Source: an uncultured virus (IMG/VR IMGVR_UViG_3300035130_000143)
Taxonomy: Duplodnaviria; Heunggongvirae; Uroviricota; Caudoviricetes
Length of the DNA stretch: 64,000 nucleotides
Strand: one strand, 5' to 3'
Virus record (IMG/VR): IMGVR_UViG_3300035130_000143
Below the pieces are notes generated by a model, which was given only the letters and a program-made list of their open reading frames with translations, was not told the origin of the DNA and did not search any database. Position numbers and translations under genes: made by a program. Below are positions 35,063-50,924 of this stretch, piece after piece (position 1 is the first letter of the stretch; every line of letters starts with the position of its first letter).

Positions 35063-35091
35063 TTGACGCCGTTGTCAATCCATGATAGAAT
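35063..35091 (+). promoter_or_regulatory. sigma70 promoter TTGACG-17-TAGAAT heading the ncRNA block
   Basis: near-consensus, at the strand-divergence point. Confidence 0.75.
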
Positions 35092-36512: not shown

Positions 36513-36854
36513 CTATACCCAACAGCCCAGTCGTTCGTACCGTGGGTGTCGGGAGCGGCGGTATCCTGGGCCACTGCTCAAATTGTCTACTAGAGCCTTT
36601 GAAACGAAATGCCAGGACGGGAGACAAGGGCATCAGCAAAGCGGGGAGCGTTCTAGTTAAGCTCCCAACGGTTGTACCTGGCGCTCGACTGGCTACAGTG
36701 GCATGTGACCAGCCGCGCCAGTTTTTAACAACGCCTCATTAGTAATAGCTTTGATGAGGCAAAATCGGAGCGCCGCGTCTGCCCAATACAGACGCGGCGT
36801 AAACAATAGAGCGCCGCGCCAGTTATGGCAACAGGCGCGGCGCTGAAGTTATCG

Positions 36855-36928
36855 CTATCCCCGCTCCCGTACTCCACGTAATGGATTTCGGAAATGTTGC
36901 AAAAGAGACGGGAGCGGGGTGGTTTTTT
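36855..36928 (+). terminator. long hairpin + T run ending the ncRNA block
   Basis: CCCCGCTCCCGT ... ACGGGAGCGGGG then GTTTTTT. Confidence 0.6.
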
Positions 36929-37041
36929 GGGAGATGAAATGGACCTGCGATATTGGACAAAAAAGGTATTAGAAAAATGCGATCCGACGAGTGAACCGGT
37001 CTAGGAAGACAAGGAGCATGCCTGGGACAAGGGGAAGCGAC

Positions 37042-37377
37042 ATGGATAGACTTGACGAGATTCGCGCAAGACACGAACGCGTCATGGAGTGGTCGAACAG
37101 ACGCCAGCGCGGAGTATCAACTGCGCGTGAGGACATCGGTTATCTTCTGGGGCTTCTGGTAGAGCATCCCGCGAGCGAGCCGCCTGGGGACAATCGGGTG
37201 GTCATAGTGCGCGTGAGTGGTAAGCGCATGGCCGGGCTGTATCAGCGCGGGCAGTGGTTTGTGTACCAGCGTGTTGGCTTTGCTCCCAGGGGAGATGTGG
37301 AAAGTTGGCAAGAACTTCCCCCGGTTGAGGGCGTGTGTACTCCGAGGGCACAAAGGGGTTATGATGGCAAAGACTAA
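37042..37377 (+). CDS. hypothetical protein with a DUF551-like C-terminus
   Basis: PASEPP...V.SWQELPP; paralog at 30712-31038. Confidence 0.55.
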   Translation: MDRLDEIRARHERVMEWSNRRQRGVSTAREDIGYLLGLLVEHPASEPPGDNRVVIVRVSGKRMAGLYQRGQWFVYQRVGFAPRGDVESWQELPPVEGVCTPRAQRGYDGKD

Positions 37378-37612
37378 AAAAGAGCGGGTGCGGGCGCTGA
37401 TCCTGGCGCGGCGTGGGCAGAATGTCAAAGCGCGTACCATCGAGGATGATTACGTTATTGCTTACGACGACGATGTTTCTCGGTCCACGGTGGCGAGCGT
37501 GTTCCAGGAACTGTGCCAGGCTGGGCTTGCCTGGTGGGGATGGGGCGGCGGGCGTAATGCGTGTTGGCTTGTGTGTAGTTGTGATTTGTTTACGAGGTCG
37601 GAAGATGAATGA
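37361..37612 (+). CDS. winged-helix-like protein, paralog of 3977-4222
   Basis: TKKERVR...VSRSTV....EL...GWGGGRN. Confidence 0.65.
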   Translation: MMAKTKKERVRALILARRGQNVKARTIEDDYVIAYDDDVSRSTVASVFQELCQAGLAWWGWGGGRNACWLVCSCDLFTRSEDE

Positions 37613-37724
37613 ATGGACGCCGAAAGGCCGACGCGCTATTGAAGTGCTCTCACGGTGTAAGTTTTTGCCTGGGAGCTATGACAAGCGGTTCGTGCGCGCA
37701 ATGGACGAAAGGAGACTATGAGAG

Positions 37725-38243
37725 ATGGACTTGAACGATTGGGCGCAAAAGGCATTAGAGAAGTGCGATCCGGCAAGCAAGCCGGTTTCGCTATACTGGT
37801 TTGAGCATGTGAAATATGATTCGGATGTGGACTGGTGCTATGAGTGCGCCATTGCCCTCATGGAATATTTCAACGGCGAGACCGAGCGCCCCGAAACGGT
37901 CTGGGAAGACGAGGAGATTCCCGATTGGTCCCCTGGGCCTGATAGCGTTGCTCTTGCTGGCGGCTGGGCAATCGAATCGGACACCGCGAGATTTTGCGCT
38001 CGGTGCGGGCGCAGGCTGGAATTTTGCCCGACTGACTATTTTTGCAAGAGTGAGCTGGAATATTATGAGAATTACACCCCCAGGGGTGACTGGCGCAGTT
38101 TTCAGATATTCCTGGATGCAATGGATGAATACTGCGCCTCAGGACGGGACTGGTATTCGCGGGCATTGAGGCTTGCCGAGAAATACCTGGGGACCGAAAC
38201 TATTGACCGGTGGGGACGGCGCACAGTTGAGGTAAAAGGCTAG
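37725..38243 (+). CDS. hypothetical protein
   Basis: 172-aa ORF. Confidence 0.65.
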   Translation: MDLNDWAQKALEKCDPASKPVSLYWFEHVKYDSDVDWCYECAIALMEYFNGETERPETVWEDEEIPDWSPGPDSVALAGGWAIESDTARFCARCGRRLEFCPTDYFCKSELEYYENYTPRGDWRSFQIFLDAMDEYCASGRDWYSRALRLAEKYLGTETIDRWGRRTVEVKG

Positions 38244-38806
38244 TGAACCAACAGACTCCCCTCGTCATCACAGCCCAGACCATCCCTGCCGCCGAAGGAA
38301 TGAAAGTGCATTTTTCACAGAAGTCCAACGAATGGGCCACGCCTCAAGATGTGTTTGACAAACTGGATAGCATGTTTGGGCCATTCTCTTTGGACCCCTG
38401 CGCCACTCCCGAAAACGCAAAGTGCGAGCGGTTTTTCACGGCAAAAGAAGACGGGATAAAACAGGACTGGGGTACACACACTGTTTTTATGAATCCGCCA
38501 TACGGTAGGCAGATCGGGCGGTGGATTGCCAAAGCCTACCACGAAAGCTTGCAGGGCGCTATGGTGGTCTGCTTGATTCCAGCACGTACAGACACAGCAT
38601 ACTGGCATGATTACGTTATGCGCGCTGGCGAGGTTTATTTGCTACGCGGGCGCATAAAGTTCGTGGGGAGCAATAGTTCTGCGCCTTTTCCATCTTGCGT
38701 TGTGGTTTTTTATCCAAGAGATCATGACCAGTCACCTCTTTTTTTCTCGCTTGATTCACGTGCGGAGCGATGGGAAAGATACCACGAGGACGATATTCAT
38801 GAATAA
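38243..38806 (+). CDS. phage N6-adenine DNA methyltransferase (Dam-like)
   Basis: EWATPQ, LDPCAT, FMNPPYG, LIPARTDT..WH, GRIKF. Confidence 0.92.
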   Translation: MNQQTPLVITAQTIPAAEGMKVHFSQKSNEWATPQDVFDKLDSMFGPFSLDPCATPENAKCERFFTAKEDGIKQDWGTHTVFMNPPYGRQIGRWIAKAYHESLQGAMVVCLIPARTDTAYWHDYVMRAGEVYLLRGRIKFVGSNSSAPFPSCVVVFYPRDHDQSPLFFSLDSRAERWERYHEDDIHE

Positions 38807-38927
38807 CAATCAAGTCCCTTTAGTCGCGACGGCGCAAACCATTCCCGGATTTGTGGCATGCGATCTGAGCGCGCCGGGTTTATCCGGTCCCTGGAAAAGC
38901 GGACGTTTGAGCAGAGGACATGGTGGA

Positions 38928-39476
38928 ATGACGAAAATGCTGATGCTTGACTTAGGTGCTGGATTAGGTGGCGCGTCTGAGGCAATGCGCCGACGCGGGT
39001 GGAATGTCGTAACGGTGGACATCAACCCGGAGTTTAACCCCGACATCGTGGCTGACTTACGCACGTGGTCCTGGGACGGCCCGCGCCCAGACCTGGTGTG
39101 GGCCAGCCCGCCCTGTGATGAATTTGCCAAGTTCGCCATGCGTTGCTGGTATGACGTGGATGCACTGGCTACCCCTGATGTGTCGCTGGTGTTGGCCTGT
39201 AAGCGTGTCATAGATGAGTGTCACCCGCGATTCTGGATTATCGAGAACGTGCGGGGAGCCATACAATTTCTTGAACCGATATTGGGCACGCCGCGCAAGT
39301 TTCGCCCCTATTATTTGTGGGGACACTTCCCATGCTTGGGTGATGTGAAAAGGCACACATGGGGCACAAAAACAAAAAAACTATCCTCTACCGCAAAGGC
39401 CGAACGCGCTGAGATACCATACTCGTTGAGCAAGGCTGTGGCCCTGGCGATAGAGCGACAGGGTGAATTGTTGTGA
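38928..39476 (+). CDS. compact C5-cytosine methyltransferase-like protein
   Basis: LDLGAGLGG, WASPPC, IIENVRG. Confidence 0.8.
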   Translation: MTKMLMLDLGAGLGGASEAMRRRGWNVVTVDINPEFNPDIVADLRTWSWDGPRPDLVWASPPCDEFAKFAMRCWYDVDALATPDVSLVLACKRVIDECHPRFWIIENVRGAIQFLEPILGTPRKFRPYYLWGHFPCLGDVKRHTWGTKTKKLSSTAKAERAEIPYSLSKAVALAIERQGELL

Positions 39477-39606
39477 CTGATAGGCCAACCATAGCCACAT
39501 TTTGTTCAGTGGCGTGGGTAAAGGGGACCGGGGCGCGCTTATTGCCTGAACGCGCCCCGGTTGAGGAGAAATACTACAAAAAGCTGATGGTTGAGGATAT
39601 TTTATC

Positions 39607-40308
39607 ATGAACGGTGTGGAAATGTCAAGAGTTATTTACGGCGACGCCCGCGAGATAGACCTGGCGCAGTTTGACCGCTACCAAACGATAGCGGCAGACC
39701 CGCCGTGGTTTTACAACGATCAGCGCAAAGTGCGCAAGGATGGCGCTACCCCCACGGCAGGTATAGGCGCGTGTCATCACTATGACCAAATGACCGTTGA
39801 AGAAATCTGCGCCATGCCCGTTGCCCAATTGGCCGCATCCCGCTGTCATCTCTACCTCTGGGCAACCGCTCCACTCTTACCCGACGCCTTGCAGGTCATG
39901 AACGCCTGGGGCTTTGAATACGCGACTGTTGCCTTTGCCTGGGTAAAGATGAACCCTGGCGCGTGGGGCGAGGCGCAGATCAGGATAAATCAACTAGATA
40001 TGTTTGGAACGCCGGACGAGCAGGTCGCGGCGTTCATGGATAACCTGGCTTTTTTCGGTCCTGGTTTTTACACCGGCTCAAACGTAGAACTTGTGCTGCT
40101 CGGACGGCGCGGTAAACCGTTCGCCCACGCCAAGGGCCGGAAAGCCGCGCAGGCCATCTTTGCTCCACGAGGAGAACACAGCGCCAAGCCTGAGCGGGTG
40201 CAAGACTTGATAGAATGGATGTACCCTGGCGCCGCGCCGCGTCTTGAGCTTTTCGCAAGGCGAGCGCGAGTAGGATGGGATGTATTTGGCAATGAAATAC
40301 AAGATTGA
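39607..40308 (+). CDS. MT-A70 family adenine methyltransferase
   Basis: ADPPW, LYLWAT, AWGFEY...WVK, EHSAKP, LELFARR..GWDVFGNE. Confidence 0.92.
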   Translation: MNGVEMSRVIYGDAREIDLAQFDRYQTIAADPPWFYNDQRKVRKDGATPTAGIGACHHYDQMTVEEICAMPVAQLAASRCHLYLWATAPLLPDALQVMNAWGFEYATVAFAWVKMNPGAWGEAQIRINQLDMFGTPDEQVAAFMDNLAFFGPGFYTGSNVELVLLGRRGKPFAHAKGRKAAQAIFAPRGEHSAKPERVQDLIEWMYPGAAPRLELFARRARVGWDVFGNEIQD

Positions 40309-40347
40309 CGCGCCGGTTGTAAAATCGGCGCTAGAGCCACGAGAGCT

Positions 40348-41175
40348 GTGGCAAAGGCGGCTGTGGTGAGTAAATCAGTAGCGCAATACATTGTAGACGG
40401 ATTAAAATTGGAATTAAACCCAAAACTAGAGCAGCACACTGAAACTGATCTTGATACCGTATGCGCTATAACCGGTGAGCGCATTACTCAAGGCATTTTC
40501 TGGAAACATGTAATTCCTTCCTCAACAGGAGAATATTTGGGCCTCATGAGCGGTATGGCGTTCCCGTACCTGGGTATCCCCGCTGCCATGGCGTTCAAAG
40601 GCAGTTGGAACATGGGAAGCCGTCTGATTTTTGAGGACGGAACCATGTATCATCCGTACATTTCTACTGCAAGCGCAGAGAAAAGCGAACGTACCTGTTG
40701 GCGCGACCTGGTGCGCGACGTGTGGCCTGCGCGCCAGGGGCAATCGTGTCTCTGCATCATCACCGATGACTACAAAAAGAAAATTTGGCCGATGGCGCGG
40801 ACTGGAGAATTGGGTATGAATACACCAGTTCTTTTGTTAGATTCAGACAGGCTGCCGCCATCAAAAAACATAGCCTCACCCAGGCGCCTGGTTAGCCGTC
40901 TGGCATTACATAGATTGACAATTAACTGGGAAAAATTGATAGCGGTTCTCGATTTTGTCGAAACTGTTCGCGCTGCTGGCTTCGGTAGACAGGCTATCTC
41001 GGAAAGCCTGTTTACGTTCTACGCGGCGCTGATGGAGAATCAATCAACTGTGTCGAGCTGGGAAGCTCGATTGGTCGAACTGCGCGAGACGCCAGAGTTT
41101 GCCGTGGCGCTATTGATTGCGCAAAAAGATGTCGCTGAACAAGGCAAACGAGAAAAGCAACTTAGTTTTTTATAA
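40348..41175 (+). CDS. csf1: type IV CRISPR large subunit Csf1 (Cas8-like), putative
   Basis: position upstream of csf2, size, CAITG motif, KKKIWP motif. Confidence 0.65.
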   Translation: MAKAAVVSKSVAQYIVDGLKLELNPKLEQHTETDLDTVCAITGERITQGIFWKHVIPSSTGEYLGLMSGMAFPYLGIPAAMAFKGSWNMGSRLIFEDGTMYHPYISTASAEKSERTCWRDLVRDVWPARQGQSCLCIITDDYKKKIWPMARTGELGMNTPVLLLDSDRLPPSKNIASPRRLVSRLALHRLTINWEKLIAVLDFVETVRAAGFGRQAISESLFTFYAALMENQSTVSSWEARLVELRETPEFAVALLIAQKDVAEQGKREKQLSFL

Positions 41176-41186
41176 GGAGAATAAAA

Positions 41187-42629
41187 ATGCAAGCGAAACA
41201 TTTTCAATTGGCGCTGACGGCTAAAGAGGCCATCAGTCACCACGACCCAACGACGGGAAACGACAGTAATATTCTGACGTTCAACCGTCAATTACAGTTC
41301 GTCAAGCGCGACCCAACCGACACGCCGGTTTTTAGCCATCTGGTCGAGGCGCTTTGTGAGCAGAATCCTATGCCCGCGAGCGTGGGCGCGCTGACGAGTC
41401 GTCTGAATTTGCCGGAATGGTTGAGTGCGGCTTACATTCGTCTCTTGTTAGACATCCACAATAAAGCTGACACCGACACTGACGAAAGTCGAGAGAAAAA
41501 GACAAAGAAAAAAGATGGGCAAGGGCTGTTGTCGGGCATGCAGCGGTATCGCATGCTCGAAAACCGCCTGCAAACGTCAGCGGTAAAATGCTCAACACTA
41601 CACGGTTTGTGGTCTGTACTGACACATGATTTGTTGTTGGAAATGCATGACAGCAAACACGACGAGGCCATAGCCGCGTTCTGGACGCTTCCCCCCAGCG
41701 TCCAGTATTCTATGCTCACGACGATGAGCAAGCAACACCGCGCAGTTTCAACTCTGGCGCGTGTCTGGCACGCGGCAAACAAATGCCAGAGCGCAGAGTA
41801 TTGCGCGGCTGCAAAGATTCCTTATGCGCCCCAGGAGATGGCAGCGCGCTCGTTCACCGACGAGGATTTTCCAGAGCCGCCAGACGAGATAGTACTAGAT
41901 GTGCCCGCGATTAGCGTCAACAGTCTACGTCATCAACTGGTGCGCGAGCCGTCCTGGTTGCACCTGTGTTCATTGTTGGGGATTGAACCTCAGGCTAGAG
42001 GCGAGGGACCGTTGCCCGTGGGGGCCGACGCGATTTTTGCCAATGGCGGAAACATTGAAAAAGGCGCGAGCCAGCCAAGCAACACATTTTATCTGGCTGG
42101 CGAGATTCGCAAAGCCTACCCATCACTGGACTTGTTGGGCGGTACAACCTCGTCGTTTGACCTGGGCGAAAGTAAGCTGGAACTTTCGGCCTGGATTGTC
42201 TGCAAGGAAAATGCGGACAATCTGCCCGCCGCGCTACAGAATACGGCGCAGGCCCAAACCAGCGTGTTTGAAATGCTAGACGAGGTAACGCGCACGCGCC
42301 ACGCCACAGCAGACGGACAGGGCCAGATGATTTACAACTACGAGACCCTGGTAGCAGGTACGCAGGTCTTTGTCGAGTTGGCGCTAACGCCATACACCAC
42401 GGCGCTGACCGAGGGTGCGCTGGCGGCGGCGCTGGATTACTATGAGCGGAATGACAATGTGATAGGCGGCCAGTCCGCTCGCGGGCATGGGCACGTGAGC
42501 GTTGAATGGCTGACGGACAAGCCGCAGGGCATGGCTGACTATGAGCAGTTTGTCACAGAGCGCAAGGATGAATTGTACAACGGCCTCGTGAACAAGACGC
42601 TGTGCTCTGGCGCGCAGGTGATTAAATAG
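41187..42629 (+). CDS. csf2: type IV Cas7 (Csf2) with a large helical insertion resembling Cas11
   Basis: LTAKEAISHH, VPAISVNSLRHQL, FANGG, YPSLDLLGG, TRTR, QMIYNYETLVAGT, IGGQSARGHG. Confidence 0.88.
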   Translation: MQAKHFQLALTAKEAISHHDPTTGNDSNILTFNRQLQFVKRDPTDTPVFSHLVEALCEQNPMPASVGALTSRLNLPEWLSAAYIRLLLDIHNKADTDTDESREKKTKKKDGQGLLSGMQRYRMLENRLQTSAVKCSTLHGLWSVLTHDLLLEMHDSKHDEAIAAFWTLPPSVQYSMLTTMSKQHRAVSTLARVWHAANKCQSAEYCAAAKIPYAPQEMAARSFTDEDFPEPPDEIVLDVPAISVNSLRHQLVREPSWLHLCSLLGIEPQARGEGPLPVGADAIFANGGNIEKGASQPSNTFYLAGEIRKAYPSLDLLGGTTSSFDLGESKLELSAWIVCKENADNLPAALQNTAQAQTSVFEMLDEVTRTRHATADGQGQMIYNYETLVAGTQVFVELALTPYTTALTEGALAAALDYYERNDNVIGGQSARGHGHVSVEWLTDKPQGMADYEQFVTERKDELYNGLVNKTLCSGAQVIK

Positions 42630-42630
42630 C

Positions 42631-43377
42631 GTGGACGAGATTGCACGCGCTGGATTTTTAGCGCATGCCATGTTGCCTGTATACAAGCGGCGCGTGGCGC
42701 GGGCTAGAGAGTGGATTCGTCGGGCATTGGAGTTGTGCCATAGTCCATACGTGGCATGGAGCGTGGGCGGCAAAGATTCATCTGTCATGTTGGATTTGGT
42801 GTTGGAGCAATCGCCCATAGAGGCCCGCGTGTTGGTTAGTGGAGAGACCAGGTATTTATTTCCAGAATTTAACGGAATAATTGAATGGTGGCAGAGAAAG
42901 CATGGAAACAAGTTGATGGTCTCTCTTATTGAAACTGATAGGGTATGGTCAAGCAACATGGCGTTTGATGAACAGCGCAAGGCCGGGCGCAACGACATCA
43001 TGAACTTACTTCCGACAGAAGCGCATGACCTGGTTTTTTTAGGCTTGCGCGACAAGGAAAGTAATCGGCGCGAGTTAGCCAATAAGCGCGGCATTATCCG
43101 TCGCTATGCACAATCGCGAAAAAAGAATATCCGGGGAACTTACGTGTGTGTACCAATAGCCAAACTGACCACAAGGGACATAGCAGCATACACCGTAACT
43201 AATCAAATACCAGTATTCAATGTGTATACAGAATGCGGATTTGATGAACGCACAACTCTGCGTCTGACGGGAGATGCGGTGCGGCAAATGGCATTTCAGC
43301 GATTGCGCATAACTAACCCAAAAGAGTATAATGCCTTGCTGCACAGATTTCCCGAACTCAACCAATGGAATGGATAA
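42631..43377 (+). CDS. cysH: CysH/PAPS-reductase-family PP-loop protein of a type IV-B locus
   Basis: YVAWSVGGKDSSVM, FLGLRDKES.RR, PIAKLTTRDI. Confidence 0.85.
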   Translation: MDEIARAGFLAHAMLPVYKRRVARAREWIRRALELCHSPYVAWSVGGKDSSVMLDLVLEQSPIEARVLVSGETRYLFPEFNGIIEWWQRKHGNKLMVSLIETDRVWSSNMAFDEQRKAGRNDIMNLLPTEAHDLVFLGLRDKESNRRELANKRGIIRRYAQSRKKNIRGTYVCVPIAKLTTRDIAAYTVTNQIPVFNVYTECGFDERTTLRLTGDAVRQMAFQRLRITNPKEYNALLHRFPELNQWNG

Positions 43378-43779
43378 ATGGATGTACTTCTGTATCAAGT
43401 TAATCGCAACCTGAACCGAGCATATCGCACGGCAGAAGCATTCGGTGTGGCGCGTATGTTATTGCTAGATTGCGGCAGCGCGCTATTGGCCGGAAATCTA
43501 TTCAAGGCGCGAGACCGGGTGAAACTTGTATCAATTGACAAGTGGCCTGCTCCCTGGGGGCTGTTGGCGCTAGAAACTTACTACCCACACTCAATAGAAA
43601 TCACGGACTGGTCAGAAGTGACTACTATTGTAATTGGCGGGGAATCTCATGGGCTGCCGCGCAATCTCGAAGCAGCACAGCGTGCGCGAATACTTACGGT
43701 TGGCGCAATATCGGGACTAACCGTTGAGGCCGCCCTGGCTATAGCATTATATGAATGGAGGCGAAATGATTCGTATTAA
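43378..43779 (+). CDS. SpoU/TrmH-like SPOUT methyltransferase (minimal)
   Basis: RNLNRAYRTAEAFG, IVIGGESHGLP, GLTVEAALAIALYEW. Confidence 0.8.
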   Translation: MDVLLYQVNRNLNRAYRTAEAFGVARMLLLDCGSALLAGNLFKARDRVKLVSIDKWPAPWGLLALETYYPHSIEITDWSEVTTIVIGGESHGLPRNLEAAQRARILTVGAISGLTVEAALAIALYEWRRNDSY

Positions 43780-44527
43780 AGAACTTGACGCCCTAACCTC
43801 AAAATTTGCACAGTGCGCTCTTGACCCCCTGCGCGTGACGTTCTACCTGGAACACAACGCTCGCGTGGTCAACTATGACCCAATTCATCTTGATGGACTG
43901 CTGGCCCGCGCCGTGGTCGAACGCGCCACGCGGGGGCGCTTGCTGGCTGACTGCGAGGACGGCTACTGGATACCGTTGCCGCTTCAAATGTTGTGGCAGA
44001 GCGATGATGGGTTTCCGCTCTGGGCGTCCACCATGCTCTATCCAGCCGCAAAGACCATAAAAGACGTTTATGTACGCCACAAGCGCAACTCTGGCGGCGA
44101 GTTGCACAATAGAAAGAAAATGATTACCCGGAAAGGCTCCTGGATGGAGCGGCGCATACCCACCCCCACGCTGGTGTGTGACCGGTACGAGGCATATTGT
44201 GTCGGCAACCTGGACGCCGTGCAAAATCTACTTGGCGGCTTTGCACGCATTGGCAAGTTGCGCCTGGCGCGGGTCAACGGCGTCAAAGTTGAACCAGTAG
44301 ATGAATTTTCACTTTGGCGAGGCGACAAACTGGCGCGGCCCGTGCCCGCTGAATCAAAGCTGATTGACCTGGTTGAGAAACCGTCTTTAGTCGGCTGGAC
44401 GCCGCCGCACTGGAAACCGTCATTGTTCTCGCCTGGCTGGCAGGCGGGAACAAGGCGAGCAGAGAACTTGCGAGAGTTTTTGGACTTGACATATTTACAG
44501 GAGATAGATTATTTTGACGCAGTGTAA
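43766..44527 (+). CDS. csf3: type IV Cas5 (Csf3)
   Basis: PLRVTF...IHLDGLLA, PLWAS, YCVGN...V..LL....IGK, RPVP, PPHW. Confidence 0.85.
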   Translation: MIRIKELDALTSKFAQCALDPLRVTFYLEHNARVVNYDPIHLDGLLARAVVERATRGRLLADCEDGYWIPLPLQMLWQSDDGFPLWASTMLYPAAKTIKDVYVRHKRNSGGELHNRKKMITRKGSWMERRIPTPTLVCDRYEAYCVGNLDAVQNLLGGFARIGKLRLARVNGVKVEPVDEFSLWRGDKLARPVPAESKLIDLVEKPSLVGWTPPHWKPSLFSPGWQAGTRRAENLREFLDLTYLQEIDYFDAV

Positions 44528-44768
44528 TGTGAACCGACTTGTGGATATTTGGCTTTTTTTGTCCGAGCGCCCAAGCCGTGGTACGGCTGTGTCTGATGCG
44601 CTTGGACTTCCTCGGTCATACATTTATAACCACGGCTTGCATCAAATGGAAGAGCGGGGCTTTTTATTGAGCCAGGATGAAAAAAGTCGTCTGTACCCGT
44701 TCAAGATTTGCGATATGGAAAACTTTCGCCTGATGCCGTGTGCAGAGCGCCCACGGCGCAGGTTGTGA
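44514..44768 (+). CDS. small winged-helix-like protein
   Basis: VSDALGLPRSYIY...MEERGFLLSQDE. Confidence 0.5.
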   Translation: MTQCNVNRLVDIWLFLSERPSRGTAVSDALGLPRSYIYNHGLHQMEERGFLLSQDEKSRLYPFKICDMENFRLMPCAERPRRRL

Positions 44769-44783
44769 TGCGTTGAGGCGGCT

Positions 44784-45923
44784 GTGGTGAAAGCGTTCTA
44801 TGCCGACGACCGAGTGAAGTTGTATCGGGCCGACGCCCTTGACCTCTTGCGCAGTCTTGACGCCGCCAGCGTCAGCCTCATTTTTGCCGACCCGCCCTAT
44901 AAAGGCGTAAAAAATCTCTGGTGGGACAACCAATGGAAAAGCGACGCCGACTTTTTGGCCTGGATAGGCGCGCTCTGCGATGGGTTTAAGCGTGTGTTGG
45001 CTCCCAATGGCAGCTTCTACGTCTGCGCTAGTCCGGCGATGGCCTGGGCAGTTGAGGGCCAGGTGCGCCAGCGGTTCAATGTGCTAAACTCTATCCGGTG
45101 GTACAAAGACGCGGGCTGGCACAAAAAAGCGCGACCAGAGGACCTGAGAAGCTACCTGGAGCCGTGGGAGAGCATCATTTTCGCAGAACAATGGTGGGCC
45201 GATGCCAGCGCCGAGGGTGAGGCGGGCTACTATTCCCAGTGCAAGGCGTTGCACAAAAATGTCTACGCGCCCATTGGTCGCTACATCCAACAGGAGCGGG
45301 AGCGGGCGGCCCTGAGCAGGAATGACGTTGAGGTTGCTCTTGGGTACGTGTCAGGTAACGACCCGACAAGAGGGACGGCGTTGTGCTATCGGTGGGAAGA
45401 AGGATCAAGCCTACCGACTAAAGATGCCTATGAGCGCCTGCGCGTGTACCTGAACACGCATGGGAATGGTTGTGGTGAGTACTTGCGCGAAAGCTATGAG
45501 TATCTGCGCGAAAGCTACGAGGACTTGCGCGCAGAGTATGAAAGCCTGCGCCGCCCATTCACCCTCACCAAAGACCGTCCCTCAACTGATCTGTGGACCT
45601 ACGAGTCGGTGCAGCCAGACGACGAAAAGCACCCGACCGAAAAGCCGCTAGAAATGCTCTTAGACATCGTAAAGACATCGAGCCGCCCGATGGACCTTGT
45701 TGTTGACCCGTTCCTGGGGCGCGGCGCAACTGCCGTGGCGGCCCAGGGGTTGGGCCGCCGCTTTGTCGGGGGCGATATTCAAGAGCACTGGGTCAGCGCC
45801 ACGGTTTCCAGACTGAAAGAGGCTCGGGGAGAAATGCACATGCGGGTCAGGCGCAGGGATGAGCCGCAAAAACAAGCAGGACAAATTGACCTGTTTGAAA
45901 TACTAGAACGAGGGCTAGAGTGA
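44784..45923 (+). CDS. N4/N6 DNA methyltransferase (beta class) with an inserted XRE-like HTH
   Basis: ADPPY, HPTEKP, DPFLGRG; insert IQQERERAALSRNDV...RWEEGSSLP. Confidence 0.9.
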   Translation: MVKAFYADDRVKLYRADALDLLRSLDAASVSLIFADPPYKGVKNLWWDNQWKSDADFLAWIGALCDGFKRVLAPNGSFYVCASPAMAWAVEGQVRQRFNVLNSIRWYKDAGWHKKARPEDLRSYLEPWESIIFAEQWWADASAEGEAGYYSQCKALHKNVYAPIGRYIQQERERAALSRNDVEVALGYVSGNDPTRGTALCYRWEEGSSLPTKDAYERLRVYLNTHGNGCGEYLRESYEYLRESYEDLRAEYESLRRPFTLTKDRPSTDLWTYESVQPDDEKHPTEKPLEMLLDIVKTSSRPMDLVVDPFLGRGATAVAAQGLGRRFVGGDIQEHWVSATVSRLKEARGEMHMRVRRRDEPQKQAGQIDLFEILERGLE

Positions 45924-46046
45924 ACTTGTTTTGCGCTGACGACCGAGTGAAGCTATACCAGGCTGACGTCCTACACTGGGCGCGTTGGTACAAGGATGAG
46001 ATAGTTTGGGAAAATCGAACCCCCGGGGGCGTAAAGAGAGGTGATT
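45921..46046 (+). pseudogene. 5' remnant of a DNA methyltransferase gene
   Basis: VNLFCADDRVKLYQADVLHWARWYK resembles the starts of the 44784 and 50925 genes. Confidence 0.6.
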
Positions 46047-47264
46047 GTGGAATTGAACGATTTTACTTTTAGCGGAATGATTTTGATACTTCTAGGCGCG
46101 GCGCTCGCTTATGTGCGTGCTGTTCCACGGGCGCTATGGCAGTTTATCAAGACGCGATTTACAATTGTCATAGATGTGACTGAGCGGGACGTGTTTTATG
46201 ATTGGGTGGCGAACTGGCTGGCCGAGCAAGAGCACTTCAAGAAATGTCGCCGTCTATCTGTGTCTGCACAGCGCAAGAGAGAGGATGATGTCGCGGAGCT
46301 AACTTCTGACTCAGGGCGCAAAGCCTGGCAAATCAAAGTTGTTCCTGCCCAGGGAGAGCATTTCTTTATGTGGCGCGGTTGCAGAGTATGGATGCACAAA
46401 GATCGCGAAAAGCTCAAAGAGACAGGAGTGTTCCTGGGATTTTTCGAGTCAGTTCAATTTACATTTCTAACACGTAATCGCACACTTGTTGAAAGTTTCT
46501 TGGATGAGGTGCGTCAATTCAATGTCTCAGACGACGATGCCAGGCTTGCCATTTACACAAATCAATATTCCTCTTGGAGACTGTTTTCTTTGGTTCATCC
46601 ACGGTCGCCAAATACCGTTGTCCTAAGCGATGATAAAATGCAATCTCTCATTAAAGATATAGAACAGTTTTTTGCGTCAAAGTTATGGTATAGAGAACAC
46701 GCTATACCGTATCGGCGCGGCTATCTTTTACATGGCCCACCAGGGAACGGCAAAAGCAGTTCGGTGCGGGCGCTTGCGTCTCATTTCGGGCGTGATGTGT
46801 ATATCCTGCGCGCCGGAAAAGACTTGGACGATGCGAATTTTATGGAGTTGTTGATTGATTTGCCAGAGAATGCTTTTTTGTTGATAGAGGACGTTGATAA
46901 AATTTCCGATGACAGAAACGAGAACAGATTGACTCGTAGCGGCTTTCTCAATGCACTTGACGGGATTGCGGCCACGACTGGCAGAGTCGTTTTCATGACG
47001 ACAAACTTTGTAGACGAATTGGATGAGGCGCTAATGCGCCCCGGTCGCGCCGATGTAGTTTGGTTCATTGACACACCTACGAGGCAACAGGCTGAAATTT
47101 ATCTCAATCGCTTTCTGGATACTGCCAACACAGAGCGTGTTATATCGGCCATGAGCGATTTGAACGGCAGAATGTCTATGGCTGCTTTGCAGGCTGAGAT
47201 TATTCGTCGCTGTACTCCAGGGGCGCAAGGAGTGAAAATCAATGAACAAGCTCAAGAACAATAG
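46041..47264 (+). CDS. BCS1-like AAA+ ATPase with an N-terminal TM segment
   Basis: IPYRRGYLLHGPPGNGKSS, LLIEDVD, SGFLNALDG, MTTN, ALMRPGRAD. Confidence 0.9.
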   Translation: MIVELNDFTFSGMILILLGAALAYVRAVPRALWQFIKTRFTIVIDVTERDVFYDWVANWLAEQEHFKKCRRLSVSAQRKREDDVAELTSDSGRKAWQIKVVPAQGEHFFMWRGCRVWMHKDREKLKETGVFLGFFESVQFTFLTRNRTLVESFLDEVRQFNVSDDDARLAIYTNQYSSWRLFSLVHPRSPNTVVLSDDKMQSLIKDIEQFFASKLWYREHAIPYRRGYLLHGPPGNGKSSSVRALASHFGRDVYILRAGKDLDDANFMELLIDLPENAFLLIEDVDKISDDRNENRLTRSGFLNALDGIAATTGRVVFMTTNFVDELDEALMRPGRADVVWFIDTPTRQQAEIYLNRFLDTANTERVISAMSDLNGRMSMAALQAEIIRRCTPGAQGVKINEQAQEQ

Positions 47265-47645
47265 TTTTGAGGGCGGGAGCATGGAGAATCCCTACAGCGG
47301 CGACCGGGGAGAACACGAGATTGCACAGAAAGAAATTCGGCTGGCGTCCTCGTGAAACGCAAGCGCGCCCTGAAGATACAGCCAGGAGACCGTGTACTCT
47401 GCCAGATATTCAACCCCGTCACCGGCGGCTTTGGCCGCCCGTTCGAGGGAGTAATTGAGGACACCGAGGGCCTCATGTACCTGGTGCGCCCACGTGGGCG
47501 GGGGTACTTGGAGCCGTTGCAGAGGAAGGAGATCAAAGTGGTAAAGGGGATAGGATGGGGGTAGCTTGCCAGACCATTCCCCTGACGAGTTCGAGGCCCT
47601 GGGCCTGTCGCTGGTCGAGGGCGAGGATAATCAGATACCCCTGGG

Positions 47646-48806
47646 ATGGGGATAGAGGAGAGTAGAATGTTGCTACACAGAGACGACAAAGGCCGCGCCG
47701 TGCTGACGTGCGGCGGCGCGAAATACATCTTAGACGGGGGCTGCGTCTACGACGAGCGCGGCAAGCAAGTCGGCGCTGCGGCCCTGCTCGCGGCGCTGGA
47801 AAAAGGAGCAGGGGAAAAGAGCCGCCCGCCCCTCACCATTTTCATTGATGACATCGGGCGCACCTGGCTGGCCTGCGGGGCGCACGAGTGTCTAGTAGCG
47901 CACCCTGACTATCTGACCGACACAGACGCCGTATCGAGGGACCGCTACCTGCGCAACCTGTCCAATTTCATCCACGCCAGCGCAAGCAACGACGCGCTGG
48001 TGGTGGGCGACAATCCGTTGGACGCGCCGCCGCCCAGTCTCCCGCTCGAGCGGCATAACGAGCGGGAGTTGAGCGTGGGGATAGATGACGGGCGCACCGC
48101 CATTGAGGACTGGTGGATAGCGCGCGCGCCCACTGACGCGGTTAAGTTTTGGCAATCAGTGCTGCGTGAGATTCGCAAGCTGACCGGTAACGAGACGACC
48201 CTGCGCCGAGGGAGCGACGCCCTGGCGAGCGCGGCGGTCGAGGCTCGTGAATTCGGTCTGACCGCCGATTTCACCTTGACCGTAGACGGTTCGAGAGACT
48301 ACCGCTACAACCAGAAAAAACAGCAGTGGTCTCACAACCTCTTGCCTGTTGACTTTGGTCGGGCGCTCTACGAGGCCCTGCGCGAAAAGTCGCGCCTGCC
48401 AGACGAGCGCGCCCGCTTTGCAGCCCCGCAGGATGGGGCGCTGGTGGTAGAGCTGTTGGAGCATTGCGCGATTGACGCCTTTGACCTGCGCATCGGGGAC
48501 GTCGTGTATGAATATGCGTTTGGGGAGTGGTTCCCTGGTTCAGCGCGCGTGGACGACATCGGCCTGGAGCTTTACCGACTGCTTAGGCCGCCTACCGGGC
48601 CAAAGTACGTTGTGGTCTACGAATACAAACGCGTCCGCGTGCGCTGGAATAGTGAGGCCCTGGGGGCGCAAGTCACAGCCGATGGATGGCTGCTGTTTGA
48701 AAACGGCGAGATTGTGGTGGTTGCGCAGGCGATGACAGCCCGCAACGAAACCAGCGCCCTGGTCATCCCCAGGAGCGCCATAGTCAAGATGGAGGCGGAC
48801 GAATGA
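47646..48806 (+). CDS. hypothetical protein
   Basis: ~380-aa ORF with GAGGAG SD. Confidence 0.7.
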   Translation: MGIEESRMLLHRDDKGRAVLTCGGAKYILDGGCVYDERGKQVGAAALLAALEKGAGEKSRPPLTIFIDDIGRTWLACGAHECLVAHPDYLTDTDAVSRDRYLRNLSNFIHASASNDALVVGDNPLDAPPPSLPLERHNERELSVGIDDGRTAIEDWWIARAPTDAVKFWQSVLREIRKLTGNETTLRRGSDALASAAVEAREFGLTADFTLTVDGSRDYRYNQKKQQWSHNLLPVDFGRALYEALREKSRLPDERARFAAPQDGALVVELLEHCAIDAFDLRIGDVVYEYAFGEWFPGSARVDDIGLELYRLLRPPTGPKYVVVYEYKRVRVRWNSEALGAQVTADGWLLFENGEIVVVAQAMTARNETSALVIPRSAIVKMEADE

Positions 48807-49474
48807 ACGAAGTTAAACAAATAACCGATTACAGAAAGGCGTGCGATTGCAAAGGGACATCAAGCTCTGGAACCCACATCACCAGGGCTCCAGGGATCAG
48901 CGACAACAAAGTTACCTACCGAGAATGGTCGTCCGCAATCCCTGCCTGCAATGTGTGTGGCAAGCTGTGGAAAAAAATTGAGCAGGCAGAGCGCCCATCC
49001 CGCCTCGACCGCTTTATGGCCCGCACGCGCGAGGCCGTCGCCTGGGGCACGTGCCCGCGCCTGCCGGTCGGAGCCGTAGTCGCCCGTGGCGGGCGGCTGA
49101 TTAGCGAGGGCTGGAACGGAGCGCCGTCAGGCCAGCCGCACTGCACCGACGTGGGTTGCATCGTCGTCAATGACCACTGCGCCCGCGCCATTCACGCCGA
49201 AGACAACGCCCTGTGGTTCGCGGGCGAGCAGGCGTGCATTGGGGCGGATCTGTACGTCTCACACGTCCCCTGCTACAATTGCGCCAACCTGATCTTGCGC
49301 GCCCGCATCGCCCGCGTGATATTCGAGCACATCTACAAAGTGGACCAGGCCGCCGTGGCCCTGCTCGTGACGCGGTGCAACTTGTACCGCTACCAGGACG
49401 GCGAGTTGCTGCCGGTCTGGTCGGTTGAGCAGGTAGACCGGTGGGGGCAGAAGGAAAAGGAGTATAGGATATGA
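48803..49474 (+). CDS. dCMP deaminase with an N-terminal extension
   Basis: VGAVV, GWNG, HAEDNA, PCYNCA. Confidence 0.9.
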   Translation: MNEVKQITDYRKACDCKGTSSSGTHITRAPGISDNKVTYREWSSAIPACNVCGKLWKKIEQAERPSRLDRFMARTREAVAWGTCPRLPVGAVVARGGRLISEGWNGAPSGQPHCTDVGCIVVNDHCARAIHAEDNALWFAGEQACIGADLYVSHVPCYNCANLILRARIARVIFEHIYKVDQAAVALLVTRCNLYRYQDGELLPVWSVEQVDRWGQKEKEYRI

Positions 49475-50140
49475 CCCCCCTGATCGTTTCCGCCTACAAT
49501 CTCCCTGCCGCCTGGGAGCGTTCCATTGAAGCCCTGCTGGCCCACGGCCGGCCGACGCCCACGCAGTACGACGCCGAAGGCGAGCCGCCGTCGCTCGAGG
49601 CCGTCATGATAATGACGGTCCTCAACCCGATGGGTGAGCCGCGCGCCCATCGCAACATCCCCGAAGGGCTGGATGGCCTGCGGTAGTACGTGGCCGACGT
49701 GGTAGAGGGGGCGCGCGACTACATGGTGGACCAGGGAATCTGGACCTACTCCTACCACCGGCGCCTGTGCGAGTATCCTGGCTTGAGCTACACACGCGGA
49801 CCGGGCGAGGCCATCGGCGGCGTCATTGACCAGGTGGACCTGGCTATCGAGCGCCTGGCCGCTTTCGCTGGACATGCACCTGCACTGGCGATCCAGGGAT
49901 GCGTACAGGGCCGCCTTTATGAACCTGTACGCTTTTTCAGCCTGGCAGGCCGTGGTCGCTGCCGAGCTTGGCCGTCGCCTGGCCGAGCCGGTGACGGTGG
50001 GCGTCTTATGCGACATTACCGACAGTTACCATATTTACGGGCGCGACATCGACGCGGCCCGGCGGTTCCTGCGCAAGATGGAAAAGCGCGGGTTTGCAGA
50101 GCGGATGTGGACGACGGATGATGTGGAGAGGTTGGGGTGA
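49471..50140 (+). pseudogene. thyA: thymidylate synthase-like pseudogene (in-frame TAG plus a frameshifting internal deletion)
   Basis: WTYSYHRRL, IDQVD, WRSRDAYRAAFMN, DSYHIYG; catalytic PC segment absent. Confidence 0.75.
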
Positions 50141-50913: not shown

Positions 50914-50924
50914 GGACATTTTAA

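What the first reader, a model, noticed from the sequence alone, without database searches (positions are those of the whole stretch)
42631..44527. CysH-like and SPOUT methyltransferase genes embedded between csf2 and csf3
Seen: csf2-cysH-spoU-csf3 are abutting or overlapping (1-bp gap, 0-bp gap, overlap). Known: CysH-like PP-loop proteins are the type IV-B signature and related enzymes adenylate or thiolate substrates (DndC, tRNA thiolases); SpoU/TrmH enzymes 2'-O-methylate RNA. I know of no described SPOUT enzyme inside a type IV operon. Inference: a Cas-scaffolded, possibly RNA-guided nucleic-acid modification machine rather than an interference system.
Basis: partly seen in the sequence, partly recalled or inferred. 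Interest (0 to 1): 0.82.

Follow-up and report, generated by a model that had tools for sequence, protein, structure and literature searches.

The report
RNA methylase inside viral type IV-B CRISPR operon
A phage carries a CRISPR-derived type IV-B gene set with a small RNA 2'-O-methylase wedged beside its signature CysH-like enzyme, the same pairing recurs in dozens of uncultivated viruses, often with a phosphatase, and this points to RNA chemistry as the long-unknown job of these systems.

Summary
In the window, a divergent csf1, csf2, a cysH-like gene, a 133-aa SpoU/TrmH gene and csf3 form one tight operon with a 1-bp gap, a 0-bp gap and an overlap. It has no CRISPR array, Cas6 or helicase, and it sits in a phage DNA-methylase island.

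The SpoU gene is not a one-off. Its family gave 46 further distinct loci in viral, MAG and metagenome contigs.
- 41 of the 47 distinct loci have a cysH-family gene beside spoU, and 38 of 47 have csf2 or csf3. Most misses are contig ends.
- Only 4 of 80 csf2-anchored viral type IV-B loci carry spoU. No GenBank phage or PLSDB plasmid does. It is an accessory gene, not a core one.
- spoU presence follows the CysH tree (6 changes) better than the Csf2 tree (14 changes).
- 23 of 47 loci also have a phosphatase adjacent or fused to SpoU. Three unrelated folds are used. The window has none.

Best reading: an accessory RNA ribose-2'-O-methylation module that works with CasCysH on RNA held or chosen by the Csf complex. 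RNA-guided action is untested. I found no published mention. This is a new variant of a known kind.

The parts
40348..41175 (+). Divergent csf1 (Cas8-like large subunit), 275 aa, without the usual zinc-finger cysteines
   Evidence: No Pfam, NCBIfam, PADLOC or PHROG hit. A profile of the window, L001 and L022 copies against a Csf1 profile of 15 PADLOC-verified proteins gives hhalign probability 96.9%, E 1.9e-10, over 204 columns.
41187..42629 (+). csf2 (Cas7), unusually long at 480 aa, with an insertion of about 180 aa at roughly aa 50-230
   Evidence: PADLOC typeIV_Cas7 8.5e-33 at aa 233-466. Residues 4-50 align weakly to the Cas7 N-terminus (hhalign prob 34%). The insert is not significantly Cas11-like (prob 1%). 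There is no separate cas11 gene.
42631..43377 (+). cysH-like PP-loop enzyme (CasCysH), 248 aa
   Evidence: Pfam PAPS_reduct 8.6e-12. The SxxGKDS PP-loop and the GLRxEESxxR motif are conserved in 30 sequences. The profile's best solved relative is CysD 1zun at 5.8e-17, ahead of PAPS reductase 6vpu at 3.3e-12. AF2 pLDDT 90.3. Foldseek finds TtuA, the FAD synthase PAPS domain, CysD, CysH, NcsA and TilS.
43378..43779 (+). Minimal SpoU/TrmH-class SPOUT RNA 2'-O-ribose methyltransferase, 133 aa
   Evidence: Pfam PF00588, 31.8 bits against a gathering score of 29.7. Family invariants are N11, R14, R17, T18, G87, G88, E89, L114, T115, E117. Profile against PDB: TrmH 1zjr 1e-7 and 7edc 1.5e-7, with the N..RT, GxE and C-terminal knot motifs aligned. 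AF2 pLDDT 91, pTM 0.87. Foldseek finds RlmB, TrmH, NHR and TrmL at TMq about 0.8.
43751..44527 (+). csf3 (Cas5); the likelier start is ATG 43766, behind a GGAGG
   Evidence: PADLOC typeIV_Cas5 1.8e-23; NCBIfam cas5_csf3 5.9e-11, below cut-off; junction read.
44514..44768 (+). Small ORF (84 aa) with a weak winged-helix signal; possible regulator; membership of the operon uncertain
   Evidence: Pfam TrmB 6.5e-4 and HTH_IclR 3.9e-3, both below the gathering scores. HTH genes also sit in or beside related operons: L003, L019, L021, L046, L064, L072.
39607..40308 (+). Flanking MT-A70 DNA methyltransferase (context, not part of the operon)
   Evidence: Pfam MT-A70 3.4e-21; PADLOC MTase_II 1.8e-53.
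44784..45923 (+). Flanking N6_N4 DNA methyltransferase (context)
   Evidence: Pfam N6_N4_Mtase 2.3e-33; PADLOC MTase_II 1.8e-70.

Best explanation
The window holds a phage-borne type IV-B CRISPR-Cas-derived operon: a divergent Csf1, a long Csf2, CasCysH and Csf3, with no array, Cas6 or helicase. It has acquired a dedicated 133-aa SpoU/TrmH-class methyltransferase as an accessory enzyme. SHOWN: (1) The gene is intact, has the SPOUT fold, and keeps the motif residues aligned to TrmH. (2) Its family is small and discrete. (3) The family is found almost only beside PAPS-reductase-family (CasCysH) genes, mostly inside csf operons. (4) It comes and goes as a cassette between near-identical operons. 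(5) Its presence tracks the CysH lineage better than the Csf2 lineage. (6) In about half of the loci it is adjacent or fused to a phosphatase of one of three unrelated folds. INFERRED: SpoU methylates a ribose 2'-OH of an RNA that the Csf filament binds or selects. It acts in the same pathway as CasCysH, which is an ATP-using PP-loop enzyme most like the adenylyl-transferase CysD. Where a phosphatase is present, the site is first freed of a phosphate, for instance at a 2',3'-cyclic-phosphate, 3'-phosphate or 5'-triphosphate RNA end. The pathway then resembles end-healing followed by a 2'-O-methyl 'immunising' mark, as in bacterial Pnkp-Hen1, although the proteins are unrelated. The phage setting, amid DNA methylases, a NADAR gene and a dCMP deaminase, suggests a counter-defence or RNA-protection role. 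The identity of the RNA, and whether a guide RNA directs the reaction, are unknown.
For: Operon and identities. No CRISPR-like repeats in 34000-54000, and no Rfam family at gathering score other than the tRNA in the whole window.

SpoU enzyme class.

Family size: 120 clusters at 90% identity. In the 1.84-billion-protein library, 74 representatives reach E<=1e-10.

Context survey:
- 58 spoU-anchored loci collapse to 46 distinct sequences, plus the window.
- A cysH-family gene lies next to spoU in 41 of 47.
- csf2 or csf3 is present in 38 of 47.
- PADLOC confirmed 82 of 83 of my csf1, cas11, csf2 and csf3 calls.

Cassette behaviour: L043 and L116 are 83% identical in DNA. They differ by a clean 813-bp insertion holding a HAD-like gene plus spoU, placed between csf3 and cysH.

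Lineage tracking on the same 70 loci: the spoU label needs 6 changes on the CysH tree (5 forced by starred branches) against 14 on the Csf2 tree (12 forced).

Loci without csf genes: L013 and L029 pair spoU with a long PAPS_reduct+DUF3440 enzyme and a ParB_N-like gene (DGxHR motif read by eye; Pfam found no family).

Phosphatase partners:
- A HAD-like family in 13 loci, best PDB match 2obb at 1.5e-11.
- A Cys-PTP family (CX5R) adjacent in 4 loci and fused in 3 by profile, plus 1 by motif.
- A HAD2-SpoU fusion in L026.
- A calcineurin-like phosphoesterase in L005. Its best PDB matches are lambda phosphatase (1.3e-8) and 4j6o (1.8e-7), the Pnkp 2',3'-phosphatase domain.
- 17 of the 74 family representatives are phosphatase-SpoU fusions, in both domain orders.
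- On the SpoU tree the MPE, PTP and HAD2 partners sit next to sister SpoUs.

CasCysH is closest to CysD.

Published background, read as passages: the IV-B Csf2-Cas11 filament assembles on heterogeneous RNA of about 55-60 nt, and CasCysH is proposed to hydrolyse ATP at the alpha phosphate or to AMPylate a target.
Against: No biochemical or expression data exist for any member.
- The window's own operon has no phosphatase: there was no hit among all window ORFs of 50 aa or more. The end-healing part of the model therefore rests on relatives.
- TrmH/TrmL-class SPOUT enzymes methylate internal tRNA or rRNA nucleotides. This is recalled knowledge. No 3'-terminal SPOUT methylase is known to me.
- Most type IV-B loci work without spoU: 76 of 80 viral loci, and 75 plasmids and 1 phage with Csf2 but no SpoU match.
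- The window's SpoU is 77-79% identical to that of L003, whose Csf2 and CysH are only 29% and 25% identical. spoU can therefore also move without cysH.
- The trees are quick searches with SH-aLRT support only. The spoU-plus rows come from three collections, while the spoU-minus rows come from viral contigs only.
- Physical contact between SpoU and CysH could not be tested.
Confidence: 0.6

Rival explanations
1. Programmable, box C/D-like machine. The Csf complex uses its bound RNA as a guide, and SpoU methylates the 2'-OH of a complementary target RNA. CasCysH adds a second, ATP-dependent modification.
For: The Csf2-Cas11 filament presents RNA as type III effectors do (passages of PMC7937560). 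SpoU is a 2'-O-methylase. It is embedded between csf2 and csf3 with overlapping reading frames. An RrnaAD/TRM5-like RNA methylase replaces cysH between csf2 and csf3 in L077.
Against: No array or conserved guide gene lies near the operon. The one purified IV-B complex bound heterogeneous RNA. The frequent phosphatase partners are not needed for internal guided methylation. No evidence of target pairing exists.
Confidence: 0.15
2. Self-marking of the bound RNA. SpoU, after a phosphatase where one is present, methylates the end or the backbone of the RNA on which the Csf filament assembles. This stabilises it against nucleases, as Hen1 does for small RNAs.
For: A phosphatase paired with a 2'-O-methylase, as adjacent genes or as fusions, occurs in 23 of 47 loci and in 17 of 74 family representatives. 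The phosphatase of L005 resembles lambda phosphatase and the Pnkp 2',3'-phosphatase. The Pnkp-Hen1 logic is documented (passages of PMC3675462).
Against: SPOUT enzymes are not known to act on 3' termini (recalled). The window lacks a phosphatase. No kinase or ligase belongs to the operon; the only RNA ligase seen lies 2.8 kb downstream in L002.
Confidence: 0.15
3. An independent phage gene riding in the operon. SpoU methylates host or phage tRNA or rRNA, for takeover or for resistance to ribotoxins or antibiotics, and has no functional tie to the Csf complex.
For: The nearest solved relatives are tRNA Gm18, tRNA Cm34/Um34 and rRNA methylases, including the thiostrepton and nosiheptide resistance enzymes. 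A tRNA-Met gene lies 7 kb upstream. spoU is dispensable for most IV-B loci. Two loci have spoU without csf genes.
Against: The family is found beside a cysH-family gene in 41 of 47 distinct loci and with csf genes in 38 of 47. It inserts precisely between csf3 and cysH. Even the csf-less loci keep a PAPS-reductase-family neighbour. No member was found in 50,697 phage or 72,556 plasmid records outside this context.
Confidence: 0.08
4. DNA-modification reading. The operon belongs to the surrounding DNA-methylase island, and CasCysH plus SpoU modify phage DNA.
For: Six DNA-methylase-like genes and a dCMP deaminase surround the operon at 38243-52892. DndC and BrxP are distant relatives of CysH. 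Long PAPS_reduct+DUF3440 enzymes with ParB_N occur in some IV-B loci.
Against: Every significant relative of SpoU by sequence and by fold is an RNA ribose methylase, and DNA has no 2'-OH. The DNA-methylase neighbourhood was not systematically checked in the related loci. In the loci whose flanks I scanned, the operon lay beside portal, Mu-F or capsid genes or among unassigned ORFs.
Confidence: 0.02

Closest known systems
Type IV-B CRISPR-Cas (Csf1-Cas11-Csf2-Csf3 plus CasCysH), e.g. Mycobacterium sp. JS623 megaplasmids, Rhodococcus plasmids, Skermania phage SPI1
   Same: Csf2, Csf3, a Csf1 homologue and a cysH-like PP-loop gene lie in one operon. There is no CRISPR array, Cas6, DinG or nuclease. 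The operon is carried by a mobile element.
   Different: A SpoU/TrmH gene sits between cysH and csf3. Csf1 has lost its cysteine motifs and escapes the PADLOC models. Csf2 is 480 aa with an insertion of about 180 aa, and no separate cas11 gene is present. None of the 75 plasmids or the one GenBank phage with a IV-B Csf2 has a match to this SpoU.
TrmH / TrmL / RlmB (SpoU-TrmD class RNA 2'-O-ribose methyltransferases)
   Same: Same fold (TMq about 0.8). The N..RT, GxE and C-terminal knot motifs are aligned.
   Different: At 133 aa it is shorter than any solved relative listed: the TrmL/YibK chains are 149-170 aa. It has no RNA-binding extension. Motif 3 reads GLTVEAAL instead of SLNVS. It forms a discrete clade of about 74 representatives tied to CasCysH.
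Bacterial Pnkp-Hen1 (and Pnkp1-Rnl-Hen1) RNA repair with a 2'-O-methyl 'immunisation' mark
   Same: A phosphatase is paired with a ribose 2'-O-methylase and an ATP-using adenylyl-transfer-type enzyme in one cassette. The L005 phosphatase matches the CthPnkp phosphatase domain 4j6o at 1.8e-7.
   Different: No homology exists for the methylase (SPOUT here, Rossmann-fold Hen1 there) or for the ATP enzyme (PP-loop here, ligase there). There is no kinase. A Cas7/Cas5 filament is present. The window itself has no phosphatase. This is an analogy of logic only.
Box C/D sRNP (fibrillarin-guided 2'-O-methylation)
   Same: A ribonucleoprotein is associated with a 2'-O-methylase.
   Different: The proteins are unrelated, and no guide RNA or target pairing has been shown here.

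Membership tests
Type IV-B CRISPR-Cas | Csf2 (type IV Cas7) | tested here: met
   PADLOC typeIV_Cas7 8.5e-33. NCBIfam cas7_csf2 scores only 19 bits against a cut-off of 130.
Type IV-B CRISPR-Cas | Csf3 (type IV Cas5) | tested here: met
   PADLOC typeIV_Cas5 1.8e-23.
Type IV-B CRISPR-Cas | Csf1 large subunit | tested here: met
   No library hit, but profile-profile probability is 96.9%, E 1.9e-10. The zinc-finger cysteines that are invariant in 15 Csf1 sequences are absent.
Type IV-B CRISPR-Cas | Cas11 small subunit | tested here: inconclusive
   There is no separate gene. The Csf2 insertion against a Cas11 profile gives probability 1%, E 0.049. The L001 homologue has a weak PADLOC Cas11 hit at 3.6e-3.
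Type IV-B CRISPR-Cas | Associated cysH-like gene | tested here: met
   PAPS_reduct 8.6e-12; PP-loop conserved.
Type IV-B CRISPR-Cas | No CRISPR array, Cas6 or DinG/RecD helicase | tested here: met
   No array-like repeats in 34000-54000. No such families among the 18 ORFs scanned between 36991 and 52892.
Type IV-B CRISPR-Cas | Assembly of a Csf ribonucleoprotein on RNA | not testable with these tools
   Known only for the Mycobacterium sp. JS623 complex (passages of PMC7937560).
SPOUT, SpoU/TrmH class | Match to PF00588 above the gathering score | tested here: met
   31.8 bits against 29.7. The L002 homologue scores 44.5 bits.
SPOUT, SpoU/TrmH class | Alpha/beta fold of 2'-O-methylases with a C-terminal SAM-binding region | tested here: met
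   AF2 pLDDT 91. Foldseek finds RlmB, TrmH and TrmL at TMq 0.8-0.85, E about 3e-8. I did not check the knot topology itself.
SPOUT, SpoU/TrmH class | Motif 1 Asn/Arg, motif 2 GxE and motif 3 conserved | tested here: met
   N11, R17, T18, G87, G88 and E89 are invariant in 48 sequences and align to TrmH 1zjr and 7edc. The catalytic role of the Arg is recalled from the TrmH literature, not tested here.
SPOUT, SpoU/TrmH class | Homodimer; SAM-dependent RNA methylation | not testable with these tools
   The complex prediction was not accepted. No assay exists.
Pnkp-Hen1 RNA repair cassette | Hen1-type Rossmann methylase, polynucleotide kinase and ligase domain | tested here: not met
   None was found in the operon. 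SpoU has a different fold. Only the logic is shared, so I do not file it as a member.
Pnkp-Hen1 RNA repair cassette | 2',3'-phosphatase next to the methylase | tested here: not met
   Absent from the window. A phosphatase is present in 23 of 47 related loci; its substrate is unknown.

The most novel reading that the evidence does not exclude
Type IV-B systems are CRISPR-derived RNA-modification machines. The Csf filament captures or selects an RNA. CasCysH adenylylates it. In this viral variant a phosphatase and a SPOUT enzyme then heal a ribose position and 2'-O-methylate it. This would act either as a programmable, guide-directed methylation (a prokaryotic and viral counterpart of box C/D RNPs) or as a Pnkp-Hen1-like 'immunisation' of tRNAs or guide RNAs against defence ribonucleases.
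Probability: 0.25. Interest if true: 0.9.

Novelty: new variant of a known kind. Interest (0 to 1): 0.78.

Why it matters
Type IV-B is the one CRISPR-Cas subtype whose function is still open. A September 2026 paper still states that its biological function and full architecture remain unclear (passage of PMC13676074). Reviews name CasCysH as the key.

A dedicated partner of CasCysH from an enzyme class that, by recalled knowledge and by every significant relative found here, acts on RNA ribose 2'-OH groups has three consequences.
- It argues that the substrate of the system is RNA, not DNA.
- It narrows the chemistry to a ribose or terminal-phosphate position, because interchangeable phosphatases are fused to the methylase.
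- It gives direct assays: 2'-O-methyl mapping with and without spoU, and end-chemistry tests.

It also shows that uncultivated viruses hold type IV-B variants with swappable enzyme modules that genome-based surveys of plasmids could not see. These modules include SpoU, an RrnaAD-like methylase, a glycosyltransferase, radical SAM enzymes and Cas6.

Tried and rejected
- blastn of the operon against GenBank phages and PLSDB plasmids found no match.
- No whole genome is held for the window.
- tblastn of SpoU against phages and plasmids found no match.
- I asked whether the extra 230 N-terminal residues of Csf2 are a fused Cas11. This is not supported. The Cas7 N-terminal strand comes first, at aa 4-50, so the extra part is an insertion.
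- I asked whether cysH and spoU always travel together. This holds only in part. The trees favour it overall, but the window's spoU is nearest to that of L003, whose cysH is distant.
- I looked for a CRISPR mini-array or a known RNA family near the operon and found none.
- I looked for CysH-SpoU fusion proteins. There were none among 9 longer relatives or among the 19 long family representatives. Only phosphatase fusions, and one unknown domain of about 115 aa (L014, P0127), were found.
No job ran and there is no result.
- The search of earlier findings returned nothing.
- I did not use sequencing-run look-ups, read laying or the ESM Atlas.
Full report
OBSERVATION. On the + strand, ORFs 41187-42629, 42631-43377, 43378-43779 and 43751-44527 abut exactly as described.
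- The csf2 TAG ends at 42629 and the next GTG starts at 42631.
- The cysH-like TAA ends at 43377 and the spoU ATG starts at 43378.
- The spoU TAA ends at 43779, inside csf3.
- csf3 probably starts at ATG 43766, which follows a GGAGG. That gives a 14-nt overlap instead of 29 nt.

The gene identities hold.
- PADLOC type IV Cas7 matches at 8.5e-33 (aa 233-466 of the 480-aa protein), and type IV Cas5 at 1.8e-23.
- Pfam PAPS_reduct matches at 8.6e-12, and SpoU_methylase at 31.8 bits against a gathering score of 29.7.
- The curated NCBIfam csf2 and csf3 models match only far below their cut-offs, so this is a divergent lineage.
- The 275-aa ORF upstream (40348-41175) hits no library. It aligns to a Csf1 profile with hhalign probability 96.9%, E 1.9e-10.
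- There is no separate cas11. Csf2 carries an insertion of about 180 aa after its first Cas7 strand, and that insertion is not demonstrably Cas11.
- No CRISPR-like repeats (checked in 34000-54000) and no Rfam family other than a tRNA-Met (whole window) were found, and the ORFs scanned around the operon include no Cas6 or helicase.

CONTEXT. The window looks like part of a phage genome.
- It has hits to DNA polymerase-like, primase/helicase and tail-fibre PHROGs, a TnpB gene, and NADAR, YhhQ-like and DUF5131 genes.
- The operon lies in a run of DNA-methylase genes (Dam, a C5-like gene, MT-A70, two N6_N4 genes and a long MTase-like ORF), with a dCMP deaminase and a BCS1-like AAA ATPase.
- No whole genome is held for the window.
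- Nothing similar at the DNA level exists in GenBank phages or PLSDB plasmids.

IS THE spoU GENE A ONE-OFF? No.
- A protein search found 120 clusters at 90% identity, mostly 126-146 aa.
- A profile search of 1.84 billion representatives found 74 at E<=1e-10, followed by a tail of generic SpoU proteins.
- Scans with a 48-sequence alignment fetched 10 viral, 6 MAG and 41 metagenome loci. With L002 that makes 58 loci, which collapse to 46 distinct SpoU sequences plus the window.
- Using HMMs iterated from the window, L001 and L002 proteins, a cysH-family gene lies beside spoU in 41 of 47 distinct loci. csf2 or csf3 is present in 38 of 47.
- Independent PADLOC models confirmed 82 of 83 of these csf1, cas11, csf2 and csf3 calls. 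The one miss was the window-type divergent Csf1 of L022.
- Most of the loci with no cysH or no csf call are short or end near spoU. Exceptions with room on both sides: L013 and L029, which have a cysH-family gene but no csf gene, and L051, where spoU follows a HAD-like gene and nothing was called in the 2 kb downstream.
- L013 and L029 pair spoU with a long PAPS_reduct+DUF3440 enzyme and a ParB_N-like protein (DGxHR motif by eye; Pfam found no family for it). The constant neighbour is therefore the PAPS-reductase-family enzyme.
- Gene orders vary: csf3-spoU-cysH, csf2-cysH-spoU-csf3 as in the window, and csf3-cysH-spoU. spoU stays next to cysH or one small gene away.

THE CONVERSE.
- A Csf2-profile scan of viral contigs found 124 relatives. 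Among the 80 kept, 4 carry spoU, all on contigs already known. Ten are possibly truncated, and 66 are informative and lack spoU.
- A canonical Csf2 hits 75 plasmids, mostly Rhodococcus and Mycobacterium, and one GenBank phage, Skermania SPI1. SpoU hits none of the 72,556 plasmids or 50,697 phages.
- The window's closest Csf2 relative (L001, 63% identity) has csf2, an 81-aa ORF, a cysH only 27% identical, and csf3, with no spoU.
- spoU is therefore an accessory gene of a minority of virus-associated type IV-B loci.

EVOLUTIONARY BEHAVIOUR.
- L043 and L116 share 83% DNA identity. They differ by a clean 813-bp insertion between csf3 and cysH that holds a 136-aa gene plus spoU.
- On the same 70 loci, the spoU-present label needs 14 changes on the Csf2 tree (12 forced by starred branches) but 6 on the CysH tree (5 forced) (the full Csf2 tree is).
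- spoU therefore goes with particular CysH lineages that are shuffled among Csf backbones.
- It can also move alone. The window's SpoU is sister to that of L003 (99 SH-aLRT, 77-79% identity), although their Csf2 and CysH are 29% and 25% identical.
- Caveats: these are quick trees. The spoU-plus rows come from three collections and the spoU-minus rows from viral contigs only.

WHAT THE ENZYMES ARE.
SpoU:
- N11, L12, R14, R17, T18, F22, G87, G88, E89, L114, T115, E117, A118 and L124 are invariant in 48 sequences.
- The profile aligns to TrmH (1zjr at 1e-7, 7edc at 1.5e-7), TrmL, TARBP1 and RlmB, with the N..RT, GxE and C-terminal motifs in register.
- The AF2 model (pLDDT 91, pTM 0.87) matches RlmB, TrmH, NHR and TrmL at TMq about 0.8.
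- Nearly all listed relatives with a named function are RNA 2'-O-ribose methylases; none acts on DNA.
- At 133 aa it is shorter than the solved TrmL/YibK chains listed (149-170 aa).

CasCysH:
- The PP-loop SxxGKDS and the GLRxEESxxR motif are conserved.
- The best solved relative by profile is the ATP-sulfurylase subunit CysD (5.8e-17), ahead of PAPS reductases.
- The fold neighbours include the tRNA enzymes TtuA, NcsA and TilS and the FAD-synthase PAPS domain, at TMq about 0.5.
- This fits published proposals of ATP alpha-hydrolysis or AMPylation (passages). It does not identify the substrate.

A THIRD PARTNER: PHOSPHATASES. Next to spoU, many loci carry a small gene from one of four groups.
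- A HAD-like family with DFDGT, WTCR and YIDDR motifs occurs in 13 distinct loci. Its best solved match is 2obb at 1.5e-11. It is absent from the 76 spoU-minus loci.
- A cysteine phosphatase with HCWKGSHRTG occurs in several loci. Its profile matches TpbA at 1.4e-9 and Siw14 at 2.7e-8. It is adjacent in L004, L023, L028 and L030. It is fused to SpoU in L006, L031 and L037 by profile, and in L042 by motif only.
- A second HAD-type domain is fused to SpoU in L026.
- A calcineurin-like phosphoesterase occurs in L005. Its best solved matches are lambda phosphatase (1.3e-8) and 4j6o (1.8e-7). [quoted passage not shown]

Together that is 23 of 47 distinct loci. Among the 74 family representatives, 19 are 190 aa or longer. 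Of these, 14 carry the PTP domain by profile, one more by motif, and 2 carry the HAD2 domain, in both domain orders. On the SpoU tree the MPE, PTP and HAD2 partners sit beside sister SpoUs. This is non-orthologous displacement of one function. The window has no such gene. Its closest CysH relative, L023 (76% identity), has cysH-PTP-spoU.

MECHANISM.
- Shown: a TrmH-class methylase family is dedicated to PAPS-reductase-family (CasCysH) genes, nearly always inside csf (type IV-B) operons, and is often coupled or fused to a phosphatase.
- Inferred: the module acts on RNA. It places a 2'-O-methyl group at a position that in many lineages must first be dephosphorylated. It works in the same pathway as the ATP-using CasCysH. 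The substrate is RNA bound or selected by the Csf filament, which in the one purified IV-B complex assembles on RNA of about 55-60 nt.
- The pathway resembles the healing and 'immunising' steps of Pnkp-Hen1 (PMC4411300 seen only as a search listing). The proteins are not homologous, and the operon has no kinase or ligase.
- Whether a guide directs the reaction (box C/D-like), whether the bound RNA itself is marked, and which RNA is involved all remain open.
- I could not test a SpoU-CasCysH contact, because complex prediction never accepted the job.

COMPARISON AND NOVELTY. The locus meets the type IV-B definition except for a recognisable Cas11. I found no mention of SpoU, TrmH or SPOUT in type IV systems.
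- The searches found nothing relevant.
- These words occur 0 times in the main texts of Pinilla-Redondo 2020, Taylor 2021, Shmakov 2018 and the 2026 type IV-C paper (read as passages), and SpoU occurs 0 times in the two virus papers that report IV-B.
- Shmakov et al. mention ADP-ribosyltransferase in some IV-B loci, and N6-MTase appears among their figure's gene abbreviations.
- I did not read the supplementary tables, and they could list such genes.

The finding is best filed as a new variant of a known kind: virus-borne type IV-B with a SPOUT accessory module, with or without a phosphatase. Its value is that it points the unsolved IV-B function toward RNA ribose and end chemistry and makes that directly testable.

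Noticed in passing
window 38243-52892 (+): A dense island of DNA-modification genes surrounds the operon: Dam-like 38243-38806, C5-like 38700-39476, MT-A70 39607-40308, N6_N4 44784-45923 and 50137-50913, a 655-aa MTase-like ORF 50925-52892, and a dCMP deaminase 48803-49474.
   Followed up: partly
window 46041-47264 (+): A BCS1-N plus AAA ATPase (Pfam 4.4e-29 and 2e-16; phrog_7485 at 7.6e-76) with weak similarity to the anti-phage IetA/IteA ATPases, followed by a 386-aa ORF with no hits at 47646-48806.
   Followed up: no
window 22799-24034 (-): A TnpB/IS605 OrfB gene (OrfB_IS605, Cas12f1-like TNB domain) inside the phage-like region.
   Followed up: no
window 34563-34985 (-), 27393-27890 (-), 31035-32048 (-): A NADAR-domain gene (8.6e-18), a Vut_1/YhhQ-like transporter gene (5.6e-13) and a DUF5131 gene (7.7e-90). 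These may be further nucleic-acid-modification or counter-defence genes.
   Followed up: no
window 36442-36513 (+): A single tRNA-Met (CAT) gene just upstream of the methylase island.
   Followed up: no
window 45477-45551 (+): Three tandem 21-nt repeats inside the N6_N4 methylase gene. They are an in-frame 7-codon (21-nt) coding repeat, not a CRISPR array.
   Followed up: partly
L077:4167-4649; L096:3826-4290; L097:3791-4261: In some viral IV-B loci without cysH, a gene of about 155-160 aa sits between csf2 and csf3. In L077 it matches RrnaAD (3.1e-6) and TRM5/TYW2 methylase domains. This would be a second kind of RNA-type methylase in the same slot. The L096 ORF had no Pfam hit and the L097 ORF was not scanned.
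   Followed up: partly
L103:7624-8283, L104:7630-8346; L114:1580-2275, L122:6963-7721; L137:3737-4204; L038:8120-8965, L071:7633-8400: Other enzymes occupy the variable slot of viral IV-B operons: Cas6 (7e-15), family-2 glycosyltransferase, a QueT transporter, and radical-SAM-like genes.
   Followed up: no
L084:6879-8746; L098:6900-8680; L108:9829-11585; L013:769-2868; L029:991-3207: Long PAPS_reduct+DUF3440 enzymes paired with ParB_N-like genes occur inside some IV-B operons. In L013 and L029 they occur with spoU but without csf genes.
   Followed up: partly
L004:4072-4884: A Vsr/DUF559-type endonuclease gene is inserted between cas11 and csf2 of a spoU-bearing IV-B operon.
   Followed up: no
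L002:9230-10573: An RNA ligase gene (PF09414 at 3e-9, with a PHA02142 OB domain) lies 2.8 kb downstream of the spoU-cysH pair on the viral contig whose SpoU is closest to the window's.
   Followed up: no
L014:2700-3587, P0127: An unknown N-terminal domain of about 115 aa is fused to SpoU in L014 and P0127.
   Followed up: no
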